Notes: generated from the sequence alone by a model not told the origin. DNA of 64,000 nt from Crassostrea angulata (GCF_025612915.1 NC_069115.1:8295492-8359491); one strand, 5' to 3'. Positions 4,418 to 14,400 are shown, counted from the first letter of the stretch. Translations and numbers: made by a program.

Positions 4418-7400
4418 ATGACCTATCACCAGGGTCTGTATACACATAACCAGGGTCAGTATACCCATCATCATGGTCTCCAGGGTCAGAGTACCTATCA
4501 CCAGAGTCTGTGTACCCTTCACCAGAGTCTGTACACCCATAACCAGGGCCAGTATACCCATCACCAGGGTCTCCATACCTATCACCAGGGTCAGAGTACG
4601 TATCACCAGAGTTTGTGTGCCCATCACCAGGGTCTGTACACCCATAACCAGGGTCAGTATACCCATCACCAGGGTCTCCATACCTATCACCAGGGTCAGC
4701 GTGCGTATCACCAGAGTCTGTGTGCCCATCACCAGAGTCTGTACACCCATAACCAGGGTTAGTATACCCATCACGAGGGTCTCCATACCTATCACCAGGG
4801 TCAGAGTGCGTATCACCAGAGTCTGTGTGCCCATCACCAGGGTCTGTACGCCAATAACCAGGGTCAGTATACCCATCACCAGGGTCTCCATACCTATCAC
4901 CAGGGTCAGAGTGCGTATCACCAGAGTCTGTGTGCCCATCACCAGAGTCTGTACACCCATAACCAGGGTTAGTATACCCATCACGAGGGTCTCCATACCT
5001 ATCACCAGGGTCAGAGTGCGTGTCACCAGAGTCTGTGTGCCCATCACCAGGGTCTGTACGCCAATAACCAGGGTCAGTATACCCATCACCAGGGTCTCCA
5101 TACCTATCACCAGGGTCAGAGTACGTATCACCAGAGTCTTGGTGCCCATCACCAGAGTCTGTACACCCATAACTAGGGTCAGCATACCCATCACCAGGGT
5201 CTCCATACCTATCACCAGGGTCAGAGTACGTATCACCAGAGTCTGTGCGCCCTTCACCAGAGTCTTTACACCCATAACCAGGGCCAGTATACCCATCACC
5301 AGGGTCTTCATACCTATCACCAGGGTCAGAGTACGTATCACTAGAGTCTGTGTGCCCATAACGAGGGTCTGTATACCCATAACAGGGCCAGTATACCCAT
5401 CACCAGAGTCTCCATACCTATCACAAGGGTCAGAGTACGTATCACCAGAGTTTGTGTGCCCATCACCAGAGTCTATACACCCATAACCAGGGCCAGTATA
5501 CCCATCACCAGGGTCTCCATACCTATCACCAGGGTCAGAGTACGTGTCACCAGAGTTTGGGTGCCCATCACCAGGGTCTGGATACCCATAACCAGGGTCT
5601 TCATACCTATCACCAGGGTCAGAGTACGTATCACCAGAGTCTGTGAGCACATCACAAGTGTCAGTATACACATAACCAGGGCCAGTATACCCATCACCAG
5701 GGTCTCCACACCTATCACCAGGGTCAGAGTACGTATCACCAGAGTCTGTGTGCTCTTCACCAGAGTCTGTACACCCATAACCAGGGCCAGTATACCCATT
5801 ACCAGGGTCTTCATACCTATCACCAGGGTCAGAGTACGTATCACCAGAGTCTGTGTGCCCATCACCAGGGTCTGTATACCCATAACCAGGGCCAGTATAC
5901 CCATCACCAGGGTCTCCATACCTATCACCAGGGTCAGAGTACGTATCACCAGAGTCTGTGTGCCCATCACCAGAGTCTGTACACCCATAACCAGGGCCAG
6001 TATACCCATCACCAGGGTCTCCATACCTATCACCAGAGTCAGAGTACGTGTCACCAGAGTTTGTGTGCCCATCACCAGGGTCTGGATACCCATAACCAGG
6101 GTCAGTATATCTATCACCAGGGTCTCCATACCTATCACCAGGGTCAGAGTACGTATCACCAGAGTCTGTGTGCCCATCACCAGGGTCTGTATACCCATAA
6201 CCAGGGCAAGTATACCCATCACCAGGGTCTCCATACCTATCACCAGGGTCAGAGTACGTGTCACCAGAGTTTGTGTGCCCATCACCAGGGTCTTCATACC
6301 TATCACCAGGGTCAGAGTACGTATCACCAGAGTCTGTGTGCCCATCACCAGGGTTTGTATACCCATAACAGGGCCAGTATACCCATCAACAGGGTCTCCA
6401 TACCTATCACCAGGGTCAGAGTACGTATCACCAGAGTCTGTGTGCCCATCACCAGAGTCTGTGCACCCATAACCAGGGCCAGTATACCAATCACGAGGGT
6501 CTCCATACCTATCACCAGGGTCAGAGTACGTGTCACCAGAGTTTATGTGCCCATCACCAGGGTCTGGATACCCATAACCAGGGTCAGTATACCTATCACC
6601 AGGGTCTCCATGCCTATCACCAGGGTCAGAGTACGTATCACCAGAGTCTGTGTGCCCATCACCAGGGTCTGTATACCCATAACCAGGGCCAGTATACCCA
6701 TCACCAGGGTCTCCATACCTATCACCAGGGTCAGAGTACGTATCACCAGAGTTTGTGTGCCCATCACCAGGGTCTGTACACCCATAACCAGGGTCAGTAT
6801 ACCAATCACCAGGGTCTCCATACCTATCACCAGGGTCAGCGTGCGTATCACCAGAGTCTGTGTGCCTATCACCAGGGTCTGTATACCCATACCATAACCA
6901 GGGTTAGTATACCCATCACCAGGGTCTCCATACCTATCACCAGGGTCAGAGGACGTGTCACCAGAGTCTGTGTGCCTATCACCAGGGTCTGTACACCCAT
7001 AACCAGGGCCAGTATAACCATCACCAGGGTCTCCATACCTATCACCAGGGTCATTATATCCATCACTAGAGTTTGTGTGCCCAACAACGGGGTCTGTACA
7101 CCCATCACCAGGGTCAGTATACCAATCACCTGGGTCTGTATACCCATAACCAGGGTCAGTATACCCGTCACCAGGGTCTTCATATCTATCACCAGGATCA
7201 GAGTACGTATCACCAGAGTCGGTACACCCATAACCAGGGTCAGTATACCCATCACCAGGGTATGTACACCCATAACCAGGGTCATTATACCCATCACCAG
7301 GGTATGTACACCCATAACCAGGGTCAGTATACCCATCACCACGGTCTCAATACCTATCACCAGGGTCAGAGTACGTATCACCAGAGTCTGTGTGCATGCT

Positions 7401-12200: not shown

Positions 12201-14400
12201 ATGGGTATACTGGCCCTGGTTATGGGTGTACAGACTCTAGTGATGGTCACACAGACTCTGGTGAGACGTACTCTGACCCTGGTGATAGGTATGGAGACCC
12301 TGGTGATGGGTATACTGGCCCTGGTTATGGGTGTACAGACCCTGGTGATGGGCACACAGACTCTGGTGATACGTACTCTGACCCTGGTGATAGGTATGAA
12401 GACCCTGGTGATGGGTATACTGGCCCTGGTTATGGGTGTAAAGACTCTGGTGAAGGGCACACAGACTCTGGTGATACGTACTCTGACCCTGGTGATAGGT
12501 ATGGAGACCCTGGTGATGGGTATACTGGCCCTGGTTATGGGTGTACAGACACTTGTGATGGGCACACAGACTCACGTGATACGTACTCTGACCCTGGTGA
12601 TAGGTATGGAGACCCTGGTGATGGGTATACTGACCCTGGTTATGGGTATCCAGACCCTGGTGATGGGCACACAGACTCTGGTGATACGTACTCTGACCCT
12701 GGTGATAGGTATGAAGACCCTGGTGATGGGTATACTGGCCCTGGTTATGGGTGTACAGACTCTGGTGATGGGCACACAGACTCTGGTGATACGTTCTCTG
12801 ACCCTGGTGATAGGTATGGAGACCCTGGTGATGGGTATACTGGCCCTGGTTATGGGTGTACAGACTCTGGTGATACGTACTCTGACCCTGGTGATAGGTA
12901 TGGAGACCCTGGTGATGGGTATACTGGCCCTGGTTATGGGTGTACAGACTCTGGTGATGGGCACACAGACTCTGGTGATACGTACTCTGACCCTGGTGAT
13001 AGGTATGAAGACCCTGGTGATGGGTATACTGGCCCTGGTTATGGGTGTACAGACTCTGGTGATGGGCACACAGACTCTGGTGATACGTACTCTGACCCTG
13101 GTGATAGGTATGGAGACCCTGGTGATGGGTATACTGGCCCTGGTTATGGGTGTACAGACTCTGGTGATGGGCACACAGACTCTGGTGATACGTACTCTGA
13201 CCCTGGTGATAGGTATGAAGACCCTGGTGATGGGTATACTGGCCCTGGTTATGGGTGTACAGACTCTGGTGAAGGGCACACAGACTCACGTGATACGTAC
13301 TCTGACACTGTTGATAGGTATGAAGACCCTGGTAATGGGTATACTGACCCTGGTTATGGGTGTACAGACCCTGGTGATGGGCACACAGACTCTGGTGATA
13401 CGTACTCTGACCCTGGTGATAGGTATGAAGACCCTGGTGATGGGTATACTGGCCCTGGTTATGGGTGTACAGACTCTGGTGAAGGGCACACAGACTCTGG
13501 TGATACGTACTCTGACCCTGGTGATAGGTATGGAGACCCTGGTGATGGGTATACTGACCCTGGTTATGGGTATCCAGACCCTGGTGATGGGCACACAAAC
13601 TCTGGTGACACGTAGTCTGACCCTGGTGATAGGTATGGAGACCCTGGTGATGGGTATACTGGCCCTGGTTATGGGTATACAGACCCTGGTGATGGGCACA
13701 CAGACTCTGGTGATACGTACTCTGACCCTGGTGATAGGTATGAAGACCCTGGTGATGGGTATACTGGCCCTGGTTATGGGTGTACAGACTCTAGTGATGG
13801 TCACACAGACTCTGGTGAGACGTACTCTGACCCTGGTGATAGGTATGGAGACCCTGGTGATGGGTATACTGGCCCTGGTTATGGGTGTACAGACCCTGGT
13901 GATGGGCACACAGACTCTGGTGATACGTACTCTGACCCTGGTGATAGGTATGAAGACCCTGGTGATGGGTATACTGGCCCTGGTTATGGGTGTAAAGACT
14001 CTGGTGAAGGGCACACAGACTCTGGTGATACGTACTCTGACCCTGGTGATAGGTATGGAGACCCTGGTGATGGGTATACTGGCCCTGGTTATGGGTGTAC
14101 AGACACTTGTGATGGGCACACAGACTCACGTGATACGTACTCTGACCCTGGTGATAGGTATGGAGACCCTGGTGATGGGTATACTGGCCCTGGTTATGGG
14201 TGTACAGAATCTGGTGATGGGCACACAGACTCTGGTGATACGTACTCTGACCCTGGTGATAGGTATGAAGACCCTGGTGATGGGTATACTGACCCTGGTT
14301 ATGTGTGTACAGACTCTGGTGATGGGCACACAGACTCTGGTGATACGTACTCTGACCCTGGAGACCATGATGATGGGTATACTGACCCTGGTTATGTGTA
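9228..14400. repeat. Satellite array, right arm: same 105-bp higher-order repeat in inverted orientation, ~48 units, with super-periodicities of ~730, ~1448 and 2058 bp
   Basis: Unit CTGGTGATGGGCACACAGACT/CTGGTGATACGTACTCTGACC/CTGGTGATAGGTATGAAGACC/CTGGTGATGGGTATACTGGCC/CTGGTTATGGGTGTACAGACT; the block 9228-11285 is repeated almost identically at 11286-13343; the variant marker CACAGACTCACGTGATACG recurs at 9772, 11830, 12560, 13278 and 14115. Confidence 0.85.

What the first reader, a model, noticed from the sequence alone, without database searches (positions are those of the whole stretch)
4418..14400. Satellite built from a 21-bp subunit in a 105-bp (5-mer) higher-order repeat, with further ~730 / ~1448 / 2058-bp super-periodicities
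The subunits differ at only a few diagnostic positions (CCCATCACCAGGGTCTGTACA / CCCATAACCAGGGTCAGTATA / CCCATCACCAGGGTCTCCATA / CCTATCACCAGGGTCAGAGTA / CGTATCACCAGAGTCTGTGTG). Their order is strictly maintained for about 87 copies. Variant units mark larger periods. Four-subunit (84-bp) units occur, for example near 10381. The marker CACAGACTCACGTGATACG recurs at 9772, 11830, 12560, 13278 and 14115. The block 9228-11285 is duplicated nearly perfectly at 11286-13343. This multi-level higher-order structure is typical of arrays homogenised by unequal crossing-over, as in centromeric alpha-satellite. Here it sits inside a transposon-like palindrome. The repeat is free of stop codons in at least four frames, which explains the 300-1000-aa ORFs in the track.
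Basis: seen in the sequence. Interest (0 to 1): 0.6.

Follow-up and report, generated by a model that had tools for sequence, protein, structure and literature searches.

The report
Known oyster satellite inside foldback transposon
The repeat is real but already catalogued as the Pacific-oyster satellite CgiSat33; here two opposed arrays of it form the long inverted arms of an 11.8-kb foldback-type mobile element, which may explain how this satellite spread over most chromosomes.

Summary
A 21-bp unit in five diverged versions forms a 105-bp higher-order unit, repeated about 90 times. There are two arrays in opposite orientation (4421-8691 and 9165-14420), not one.

The 105-bp unit is CgiSat33 of the Crassostrea gigas satellitome (Tunjic-Cvitanic 2021). 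Its consensus matches the window consensus at 103 of 105 positions. That paper gives 0.05% of the genome, presence on 8-9 of 10 chromosomes, and no known link to a transposon.

The array is non-coding. Every frame has stops. The left array has six indels that break the 21-bp register. Variants show no codon-phase bias. Two protein searches found no relatives.

The larger "periods" (~730, ~1448, 2058) are not regular. They are local segmental duplications at lags of 924, 1554, 2058 and 2478 bp, plus register shifts caused by 84-bp units.

The new part is the palindrome at 3534-15322:
- its first 62 terminal bases are identical in the two arms;
- its 887/902-bp flanking domains are 99.2% identical;
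- it is bounded by a perfect 7-bp direct repeat, ATTATCA (chance about 3e-4);
- each terminus carries two copies of an 11-mer that contains the satellite's core.

This is the anatomy of a non-autonomous foldback transposon such as FB, Galileo or Tetris. That reading rests on one copy. Nothing supports a centromeric role: the element lies 2.7 kb upstream of a PARP4 gene.

The parts
3527..3533 (.). Left copy of the 7-bp direct repeat ATTATCA (candidate target-site duplication)
   Evidence: Read directly. Identical to 15323-15329. The chance of a 7/7 match at fixed junctions is 2.6e-4.
3534..4420 (+). Left flanking domain of the terminal inverted repeat: unique sequence starting GAGGTATAGAATAGGGTAC
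   Evidence: Inverted match to 14421-15322. Global alignment gives 7 substitutions and 23 gap columns, mostly homopolymer length, so 99.2% identity excluding gaps. The first 62 bases are identical.
3563..3586 (+). Two subterminal copies of CTATAACCAGG, 13 bp apart; mirrored at 15270-15293 on the - strand
   Evidence: The 9-mer ATAACCAGG is the core of satellite subunit B. Outside the element it occurs once in 52 kb, against a chance expectation of 0.68 per window.
4250..4261 (+). Isolated satellite-like core (TTCACCAGGTTC) inside the flanking domain, about 170 bp before the array; mirrored at 14584
   Evidence: Only two other hits with up to 2 mismatches in the other 52 kb.
4421..8691 (-). Left CgiSat33 array (C-rich strand on +), about 40 units of 105 bp. 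Regular in the outer 2 kb, degenerate in the inner part, with a ~923-bp internal duplication.
   Evidence: Lag-105 identity is 0.773. Six indels break the 21-bp register.
8692..9164 (+). Middle domain: degenerate 21-bp units in right-arm orientation, with no counterpart in the left arm
   Evidence: The left inner end (8691 to 8330) aligns best to 9165-9551 at 77.5%. Sequence read.
9165..14420 (+). Right CgiSat33 array (G-rich strand on +). Degenerate inner edge 9165-9298, then 244 units (about 48.5 higher-order units) in perfect register.
   Evidence: Lag-105 identity is 0.927. Consensus is 103/105 identical to CgiSat33. Best single monomers reach 99%.
10349..10432 (+). 84-bp four-subunit unit (ABDE, subunit C missing); a second one at 12827-12910
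9226..13343 (+). Segmental duplication at lag 2058 (9226-11285 vs 11286-13343). It includes a copy of the degenerate array edge.
   Evidence: 92.3% ungapped, 97-100% over the first ~1.15 kb. One search shows local identity by lag.
14421..15322 (-). Right flanking domain of the terminal inverted repeat, ending ...GTACCCTATTCTATACCTC
15323..15329 (.). Right copy of the 7-bp direct repeat ATTATCA

Best explanation
The repeat is the non-coding satellite CgiSat33 of the Pacific oyster, or of a very close relative.

Shown:
- Its 105-bp "monomer" is a pentamer of 21-bp subunits that are 62-81% identical to each other.
- Two arrays of it, in opposite orientation, make up most of the long terminal inverted repeats of an 11,789-bp element (3534-15322).
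- The layout is: 7-bp target-site duplication; ~890-bp unique flanking domain; satellite array; degenerate inner repeats; 473-bp middle domain; then the mirror image.
- The element encodes nothing recognisable.

Inferred:
- It is a non-autonomous foldback-type DNA transposon that inserted as a unit 2.7 kb upstream of PARP4.
- Since then each arm's array has changed on its own by in-register unequal exchange or slippage. That gave the 84-bp units and the segmental duplications, with recent homogenisation on the right and decay on the left.
- The 21-bp unit derives from, or shares, a subterminal motif (CTATAACCAGG). By analogy with Galileo and Tetris, that motif may be a multiplied transposase-binding site.
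- Transposition of such elements would account for the satellite's scatter over 8-9 chromosomes.
For: Satellite identity:
- The CgiSat33 consensus in the supplement of PMC8268682 matches the window consensus at 103/105 positions. Best monomers reach 99%.
- CgiSat01b arrays elsewhere in the window match their consensus at 96-99%.
- The best PARP4 hit is C. gigas.

Non-coding:
- The two best + strand frames have 4 and 3 stops in 1735 codons.
- Six indels break the register in the left array.
- The 35 variant types fall 13/12/10 over codon phases, and the synonymous fraction is near random in all six frames.
- No protein relatives for any open frame among 5.8 billion proteins.

Transposon:
- Inverted arms. 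Flanking domains 99.2% identical, first 62 bases identical.
- Perfect 7-bp direct repeat abutting both ends, chance 2.6e-4.
- Subterminal 11-mer present twice in each end and sharing the satellite core.
- Arms of unequal length with an unpaired middle domain.
- Variants specific to one arm, for example the GEGHTDS unit at 8-10 copies on the right and 0 on the left.
- The same domain plan is described for foldback elements: Tetris has a flanking domain of up to 866 bp (PMC4079207), and Galileo has 7-bp duplications and tandem repeats in its inverted repeats (PMC3573991).
- CgiSat33 lies on 8-9 of 10 chromosomes.
- No such element within 10 kb upstream of PARP4 in Saccostrea echinata.
Against: - Only one copy was seen. 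No second copy, no empty site and no autonomous partner could be looked for, because no oyster genome is searchable with these tools.
- The published satellitome found no Repbase transposon match for CgiSat33.
- The flanking sequence CCATT[ATC]AATGG is itself nearly palindromic, so the exact element ends could be placed differently.
- PARP4 exons are only about 82-98% identical to the annotated C. gigas protein. The species, or which paralogue this is, is not fully settled.
- Many differences between the two flanking domains are homopolymer lengths, which may be sequencing error.
Confidence: 0.7

Rival explanations
1. A free-standing CgiSat33 array and its ~0.9-kb flank were copied in inverted orientation by a local rearrangement, such as a fold-back or template-switch duplication. 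No transposition was involved, and the 7-bp repeat is a coincidence.
For: - Only one copy was seen.
- The centre is asymmetric: 473 bp have no partner, as expected for a snap-back duplication.
- No transposase.
- The satellitome paper lists no transposon link for CgiSat33.
Against: - Both outer ends of the inverted repeat stop at the same base and are followed by the same 7 bases in direct orientation, with a chance of 2.6e-4. An inverted duplication does not predict this.
- Subterminal direct repeats sit close to each end.
- The satellite is dispersed over 8-9 chromosomes.
Confidence: 0.17
2. The palindrome is an assembly artefact, such as a chimeric fold-back long read or a mis-joined repeat.
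For: - Long-read assemblies can create inverted duplications in repeats.
- Most differences between the flanking domains are homopolymer lengths.
- 1-bp indels are confined to one arm.
Against: - Unique, unrelated sequence continues on both sides.
- The arms differ in length by 1 kb, in higher-order variant content and in internal duplications.
- The ends carry a direct 7-bp repeat. A fold-back chimera would mirror everything up to a contig end.
Confidence: 0.05
3. The array is, or recently was, a coding exon for a heptad-repeat protein. Candidates are the Gly/Asp/Tyr-rich frame GDGYTGP-GYGCTDS-GDGHTDS-GDTYSDP-GDRYGDP and the TLVMG frame.
For: - The period is a multiple of 3.
- The right array has no frameshift in 5.1 kb.
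- ORFs reach 1023 aa.
- The TLVMG frame scores 37.5 bits against Pfam PF21300, a 7-residue beta-roll repeat.
Against: - There are stops in every frame.
- Six register-breaking indels in the left array.
- No codon-phase or synonymous bias.
- No relatives in two database searches.
- No possible 5' exon, because the other arm lies directly upstream.
- The Pfam hit is what a periodic xVxG heptad gives.
- The sequence is a catalogued satellite with about 3000 monomers genome-wide.
Confidence: 0.03
4. It is a functional centromeric or heterochromatic satellite comparable to alpha-satellite.
For: The formal higher-order structure: diverged subunits inside more homogeneous higher-order copies.
Against: - Only about 10 kb, and 2.7 kb from an expressed-type gene.
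- The published in-silico distribution shows scattered short arrays on 8-9 chromosomes and 0.05% of the genome.
- The same paper reports no satellite accumulation at particular chromosomal positions in this species.
Confidence: 0.03

Closest known systems
CgiSat33 (Crassostrea gigas satellitome, Tunjic-Cvitanic et al. 2021, PMC8268682)
   Same: The 105-bp unit matches at 103/105 consensus positions. It is in tandem arrays. The window also carries CgiSat01b of the same species.
   Different: The paper treats 105 bp as the monomer. It reports no 21-bp substructure, no inverted paired arrays and no transposon association. All three are seen here.
Tetris foldback transposon of Drosophila virilis (Dias et al. 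2014, PMC4079207)
   Same: - Non-autonomous.
- Long inverted repeats with the same plan: unique flanking domain (up to 866 bp there, 887 bp here), tandem repeats, inner domain, middle domain.
- The repeat shares a short stretch with the flanking domain.
- The repeat also exists as a satellite.
   Different: - Repeat unit of 220 bp versus 21/105 bp.
- Duplications of 8-10 bp versus 7 bp.
- Inverted repeats up to 1.7 kb versus 5.2 and 6.2 kb.
- Insect versus mollusc.
- No sequence similarity was tested.
Galileo / Kepler / Newton (P superfamily foldback-like elements, Drosophila; PMC3573991)
   Same: - 7-bp target-site duplications.
- Long, internally repetitive inverted repeats.
- Unequal repeat numbers in the two arms of one copy.
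- The repeats are proposed as secondary transposase-binding sites.
   Different: Galileo's inverted repeats reach only 1.2 kb and complete copies encode a P-like transposase. No transposase and no similarity of the termini can be shown here.
Drosophila melanogaster FB elements (own knowledge: Potter 1982; Truett et al. 1981)
   Same: The inverted repeats are built of short tandem units with a higher-order period (31 bp x 5 = 155 bp in FB, 21 bp x 5 = 105 bp here). The arms are of unequal length. The central loop is small or absent.
   Different: FB makes 9-bp duplications and belongs to the Mutator/Phantom lineage. The sequences are unrelated as far as can be judged.
Helentron/HINE-borne satellites of C. 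gigas (Cg_HINE, PMC7492417)
   Same: In the same genome, satellite-like arrays are carried and dispersed by non-autonomous DNA elements.
   Different: HINEs have 11-12-bp subterminal inverted repeats, a 3' hairpin and a microsatellite, carry one array in one orientation, and make no target-site duplication. None of this fits here.
Primate alpha-satellite higher-order repeats
   Same: Diverged subunits are arranged in a fixed order within more homogeneous higher-order copies, and unequal crossing-over creates units with a missing subunit.
   Different: Alpha-satellite has 171-bp monomers, megabase centromeric arrays and CENP-A association. Here the subunits are 21 bp, the arrays total 10 kb, and they lie in gene-adjacent euchromatin inside a mobile element.

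Membership tests
CgiSat33 satellite DNA | Sequence identity to the published 105-bp consensus | tested here: met
   103/105 between consensuses. Best monomers reach 99%.
CgiSat33 satellite DNA | Head-to-tail tandem arrangement | tested here: met
   About 40 plus 49 units of 105 bp.
CgiSat33 satellite DNA | Host is Crassostrea (Magallana) gigas | tested here: inconclusive
   CgiSat01b arrays match at 96-99% and the best PARP4 hit is C. gigas. However, exon identity is only about 82-98%, so this is a paralogue or a close relative.
Higher-order-repeat satellite (alpha-satellite type) | Subunits clearly diverged from each other, higher-order copies much more alike | tested here: met
   Subunits share 13-17 of 21 positions. 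Lag-105 identity is 0.927 against 0.70-0.75 at other multiples of 21 in the right array.
Higher-order-repeat satellite (alpha-satellite type) | Centromeric location / CENH3 binding | not testable with these tools
   The context argues against it: 2.7 kb from PARP4, and a scattered distribution in the literature.
Foldback-type DNA transposon | Long terminal inverted repeats that make up nearly the whole element | tested here: met
   5158-bp and 6158-bp arms with a 473-bp middle domain.
Foldback-type DNA transposon | Inverted repeats internally built of tandem repeats, outside a unique terminal domain | tested here: met
Foldback-type DNA transposon | Target-site duplication flanking the element | tested here: met
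   ATTATCA at 3527-3533 and 15323-15329. Chance 2.6e-4. This rests on a single instance.
Foldback-type DNA transposon | Several dispersed copies sharing the termini, or polymorphic empty sites | not testable with these tools
   No oyster genome is searchable. There is no other copy in the 64-kb window. Metagenome scans found nothing real.
P superfamily (as Galileo) | 7-8-bp target-site duplication | tested here: met
   7 bp.
P superfamily (as Galileo) | THAP/P-type transposase in autonomous copies mobilising the same termini | not testable with these tools
   The six translations scanned (four open frames of the array, one flanking-domain ORF, one ORF across the right junction) gave no Pfam transposase domain. 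The middle domain was not scanned; it has 5 or more stops in every frame. The autonomous partner, if any, lies elsewhere.
Helentron / HINE-borne satellite | Short subterminal inverted repeats, 3' hairpin, microsatellite, single array, no target-site duplication | tested here: not met
   The structure is a long palindrome with a 7-bp duplication. HINE features as described in PMC7492417.
Protein-coding repeat exon | Intact reading frame | tested here: not met
Protein-coding repeat exon | Purifying selection (codon-phase or synonymous bias) | tested here: not met
Protein-coding repeat exon | Protein relatives in databases | tested here: not met
   The one hit, P0121, reads as a signal-peptide-bearing Ala/Gly/Ser/Thr-rich protein with no heptad repeat; I judge it unrelated and probably bacterial (own reading; 38% identity over 24% of the query).

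The most novel reading that the evidence does not exclude
CgiSat33 may not be an independent satellite. It may be the internal repeat of the inverted arms of a young, possibly still mobile, foldback transposon family in oysters, P-like to judge from its 7-bp duplication. The 21-bp subunits would be multiplied transposase-binding sites. Transposition of these palindromes, rather than Helitrons, would have spread the satellite over 8-9 chromosomes. Such 5-6-kb perfect-stem palindromes would also be hotspots for inversions and breakage next to genes.
Probability: 0.4. Interest if true: 0.5.

Novelty: new member of a known kind. Interest (0 to 1): 0.35.

Why it matters
The satellite itself is already catalogued, so the finding as first stated adds only its 21-bp x 5 substructure.

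What could matter is the link to a transposon. In the oyster satellitome, CgiSat33 is one of the satellites listed with no transposon link, and Helitrons are held to be the main carriers of satellites. A foldback element carrying it would add a second dispersal route in bivalves and give a mollusc counterpart to Tetris and Galileo. It would also flag 12-kb palindromes near genes as possible sources of rearrangement and of assembly errors.

All of this can be tested in an afternoon on the public chromosome-level assemblies.

Tried and rejected
1. Coding hypothesis: six-frame stop counts, indel parsing, codon-phase and synonymous tests, two large protein searches and a Pfam scan. Rejected. The single database hit, P0121, reads as unrelated and probably bacterial (own judgement from its sequence). 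I judge the Pfam LbR_Ice_bind hit a periodicity artefact.
2. Two metagenome DNA scans for the satellite. The first found nothing. The second gave 13 loci with matches of at most 54 nt, at chance level.
3. Literature search for the raw sequence: nothing. The match came from searching the supplement of the C. gigas satellitome paper. The five-species oyster satellitome paper has no supplement held as text.
4. Exact-protein look-ups of window ORFs to fetch other copies: none on record.
5. The orthologous PARP4 upstream region in Saccostrea echinata: no element. It is too diverged to serve as an empty site.
6. Global autocorrelation as evidence for ~730 and ~1448 periods. Rejected as a register artefact of the 84-bp units.
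7. A first look for a target-site duplication at the BLAST-defined ends (3525/15333) found none. It appeared only after the ends were moved to the last perfectly paired bases (3534/15322).
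Full report
**1. Observation**

Tandem Repeats Finder reports period 21 at 4480-8635 (197.8 copies) and at 8896-14361 (259.7 copies). It also reports a 315-bp period at 9226-14361 with 92% matches. Autocorrelation peaks at 105 bp: 0.927 in the right array and 0.773 in the left. 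Other multiples of 21 give 0.70-0.75, and non-multiples give 0.23-0.25.

A 31-mer spanning the D/E junction occurs 78 times with up to 2 mismatches, against 0 in shuffles.

From 9299 the right array holds 244 units of 21 bp in perfect register, in strict ABCDE order. The exceptions are two ABDE (84-bp) units and one degenerate block at 11273. So the core observation is correct.

**2. Corrections to the observation**

There are two arrays in opposite orientation. GC skew flips from -0.18 to +0.22, and the repeat consensus is reverse-complemented between the two arrays.

The left array is much less regular. Its inner 1.8 kb has ABABAB and DDE runs and a ~923-bp internal duplication. Six indels break the 21-bp register: -1 at 8435, 7512, 6370 and 5384, +4 at 7382 and +5 at 6894. 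A further +9 lies at the array's outer edge, at 4472.

The 2058-bp duplication is 92.3% identical without gaps. It is 97-100% over the first ~1.15 kb. It is then out of register by 21 bp, because the ABDE unit sits four higher-order units further along in the second copy.

Global autocorrelation rises for lags of 105k-21 and falls for lags of 105k. This is because more and more pairs of positions straddle an 84-bp unit. The apparent ~1449/1554 period is therefore largely a register effect. What is real is a mosaic of local duplications with 98-100% identity at lags of 924, 1554, 2058 and 2478 bp. The ~730 value is only the spacing of one marker (12565, 13279, 14119).

**3. Is it coding?**

The period is a multiple of three, and the consensus is stop-free in four frames. 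That explains ORFs of up to 1023 aa. The evidence against coding is as follows:
- The two best + strand frames still have 4 and 3 stops in 1735 codons. The best - strand frames have 9 and 8.
- The left array has six register-breaking indels.
- The 35 distinct variant types of the right array fall 13/12/10 on the three codon phases. The synonymous fraction is close to the random expectation in all six frames.
- A 420-aa query in the Gly/Asp/Tyr frame found nothing among 5.8 billion proteins.
- A query joining the other three open frames found one hit at 38% identity over 24% of the query. From its sequence I judge it an unrelated, probably bacterial protein.
- Pfam gives nothing for three of the frames. 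The TLVMG frame scores 37.5 bits against PF21300, a 7-residue beta-roll repeat. I read this as a match between two heptad periodicities, not as homology.
- Each array is preceded by the other arm, so there is no room for upstream exons.

I conclude that the array is non-coding.

**4. Identity**

A search of the supplement of the C. gigas satellitome paper (Tunjic-Cvitanic et al. 2021, PMC8268682) with 12-mers from the repeat found CgiSat33. Its 105-bp consensus differs from the window consensus at two positions. The best single monomers are 99% identical to it.

The paper lists CgiSat33 as follows:
- monomer of 105 bp, 46.7% AT;
- 0.05% of the genome and 0.80% of the satellitome;
- no Repbase transposon match;
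- present on 9 of 10 linkage groups of GCA_902806645.1 (3191 monomers, plus 254 on unplaced scaffolds);
- present on 8 of 10 chromosomes of GCA_011032805.1 (2789 monomers).

The paper does not mention sub-repeats, higher-order structure or inverted arrays. No other paper in the library names CgiSat33.

The host is C. gigas or a very close relative. The 166-bp arrays at 45209-46090 match CgiSat01b (Cg170/HindIII) at 96-99%. The PARP4 gene at 18031 to about 40000 has C. gigas PARP4 as its best hit. Its exons are only about 82-98% identical to that protein, so it may be a paralogue or a sister species.

**5. The palindrome**

The left flank 3525-4420 matches 15333-14421 in inverted orientation.

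*Ends.* Read base by base, the last perfectly paired bases are 3534 (GAGGTATAGAATAGGGTAC...) and 15322 (...GTACCCTATTCTATACCTC). Immediately outside them the same seven bases, ATTATCA, stand in direct orientation at 3527-3533 and 15323-15329. The frequency of such a 7/7 match at two fixed junctions in this window is 2.6e-4.

*Flanking domains.* The two domains (887 and 902 bp) differ by 7 substitutions and 23 gap columns. Nearly all the gap columns lie in homopolymer runs, so identity excluding gaps is 99.2%. The first 62 bases are identical.

*Subterminal motifs.* About 30-50 bp inside each end there are two copies of CTATAACCAGG, 13 bp apart. Its 9-mer core, ATAACCAGG, is the core of satellite subunit B and has the same orientation as in the adjacent array. 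It occurs only once in the other 52 kb, against a chance expectation of 0.68. A further isolated satellite-like core lies 170 bp before each array.

*Centre.* The left arm's inner end (8691) aligns with 9165 on the right. That leaves 8692-9164 as an unpaired middle domain of degenerate 21-bp units.

*Arm history.* The arms share the major unit variants but also carry arm-specific ones. The GEGHTDS unit, for example, has 8-10 copies on the right and none on the left. Only the outermost ~1 kb of the arrays is still mirrored, at 93%. The arrays have therefore turned over independently since the arms were last identical, much faster than the flanking domains.

**6. Interpretation**

The layout is: target-site duplication, unique flanking domain, tandem-repeat domain, degenerate inner domain, short middle domain, and no coding capacity. 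This is the published anatomy of foldback elements. Tetris has a flanking domain of up to 866 bp, 220-bp repeats that share 37 bp with the flanking domain, and duplications of 8-10 bp (PMC4079207). Galileo has 7-bp duplications, internally repetitive inverted repeats, unequal repeat numbers in the two arms, and repeats proposed as secondary transposase-binding sites (PMC3573991). From my own knowledge, Drosophila FB has a 31-bp x 5 = 155-bp higher-order unit, a close formal parallel to the 21-bp x 5 = 105-bp unit here.

I therefore read 3534-15322 as a non-autonomous foldback-type DNA transposon whose arms are filled with CgiSat33. A 7-bp duplication is compatible with the P superfamily (own knowledge, and Galileo), but the superfamily cannot be assigned without a transposase.

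The following steps are inference: that the element inserted as a unit, that the 21-bp unit is a multiplied binding site, and that such elements spread CgiSat33 over the chromosomes.

**7. Rivals**

- *Local inverted duplication without transposition.* This fits the asymmetric centre and the single copy. It does not predict the direct 7-bp repeat or the coincident ends.
- *Assembly artefact.* This is unlikely. Unique sequence continues on both sides, and the arms differ by 1 kb and in variant content.
- *Centromeric function.* Nothing supports it. The element lies 2.7 kb upstream of PARP4 exon 1, and the satellite is reported as scattered.
- *Helentron/HINE carriage.* This is the usual case in this genome, but its defining features are not met.

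In Saccostrea echinata the 10 kb upstream of PARP4 contains neither the flanking domain nor the satellite. That is consistent with a lineage-specific insertion, but it is weak evidence at that divergence.

**8. Limits**

No oyster genome can be searched with the tools available, so copy number, empty sites and an autonomous partner remain untested. Both metagenome scans were uninformative. The transposon reading rests on one copy.

**9. Verdict**

The satellite is real, non-coding and already known as CgiSat33. Its 21-bp x 5 substructure and its segmental duplications are new detail of modest interest. The foldback-transposon context appears to be undescribed in the papers I could search. It is a new member of a known kind and can easily be tested on public assemblies. 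Interest: 0.35.

Noticed in passing
window 18031-40000 (+ strand): A multi-exon PARP4 (vault PARP) gene with BRCT, PARP, VIT and vWA domains. The best hit is C. gigas PARP4, but exon identity is only about 82-98%, which suggests a paralogue or a sister species. The foldback element lies 2.7 kb upstream of exon 1.
   Followed up: partly
window 45209-46090 and 58682-59233: Arrays with periods of 166-173 bp. Three near-full monomers at 45322-45820 match CgiSat01b (Cg170/HindIII, described as Helitron/Helentron-associated) at 96-99%. The 58682-59233 array has a near-identical Tandem Repeats Finder consensus but gave no near-full BLAST match. A GTCC-type microsatellite at 45015-45047 precedes the first array, as described for Cg_HINE elements.
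   Followed up: partly
window 27228-27934: A 146/287-bp tandem array (about 4.9 copies, 87% matches) inside a PARP4 intron. Exact 16-17-mers from it, on both strands, were absent from the CgiSat consensus file.
   Followed up: partly
window 3931-4028 and 25063-25158: A ~100-bp segment of the element's flanking domain recurs at 78% identity, in inverted orientation, in a PARP4 intron. It is probably a fragment of another short interspersed repeat embedded in the flanking domain.
   Followed up: no
window 9300-14429, + strand, frame of 9300: The TLVMG heptad frame of the satellite scores 37.5 bits (cut-off 30) against Pfam PF21300, the grass antifreeze beta roll. I judge this a periodicity artefact, but it shows how satellite ORFs can pass curated thresholds.
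   Followed up: partly
window 3525-3533 / 15323-15333: The reconstructed target site, CCATT-ATC-AATGG, is nearly palindromic around the 7-bp duplication. Symmetric target preferences are known for P-type and other cut-and-paste transposases (own knowledge). This is a single instance only.
   Followed up: no
window 61501-61741 and 22568-22921: Two other short arrays with 21-bp or 17/81-bp periods. Their unit sequences are unrelated to CgiSat33, and the first does not match CgiSat43, the 21-bp satellite in the catalogue.
   Followed up: partly
window 16888-17037: A 150-bp near-palindrome (86% self-complementary), MITE-like, between the foldback element and PARP4 exon 1.
   Followed up: no
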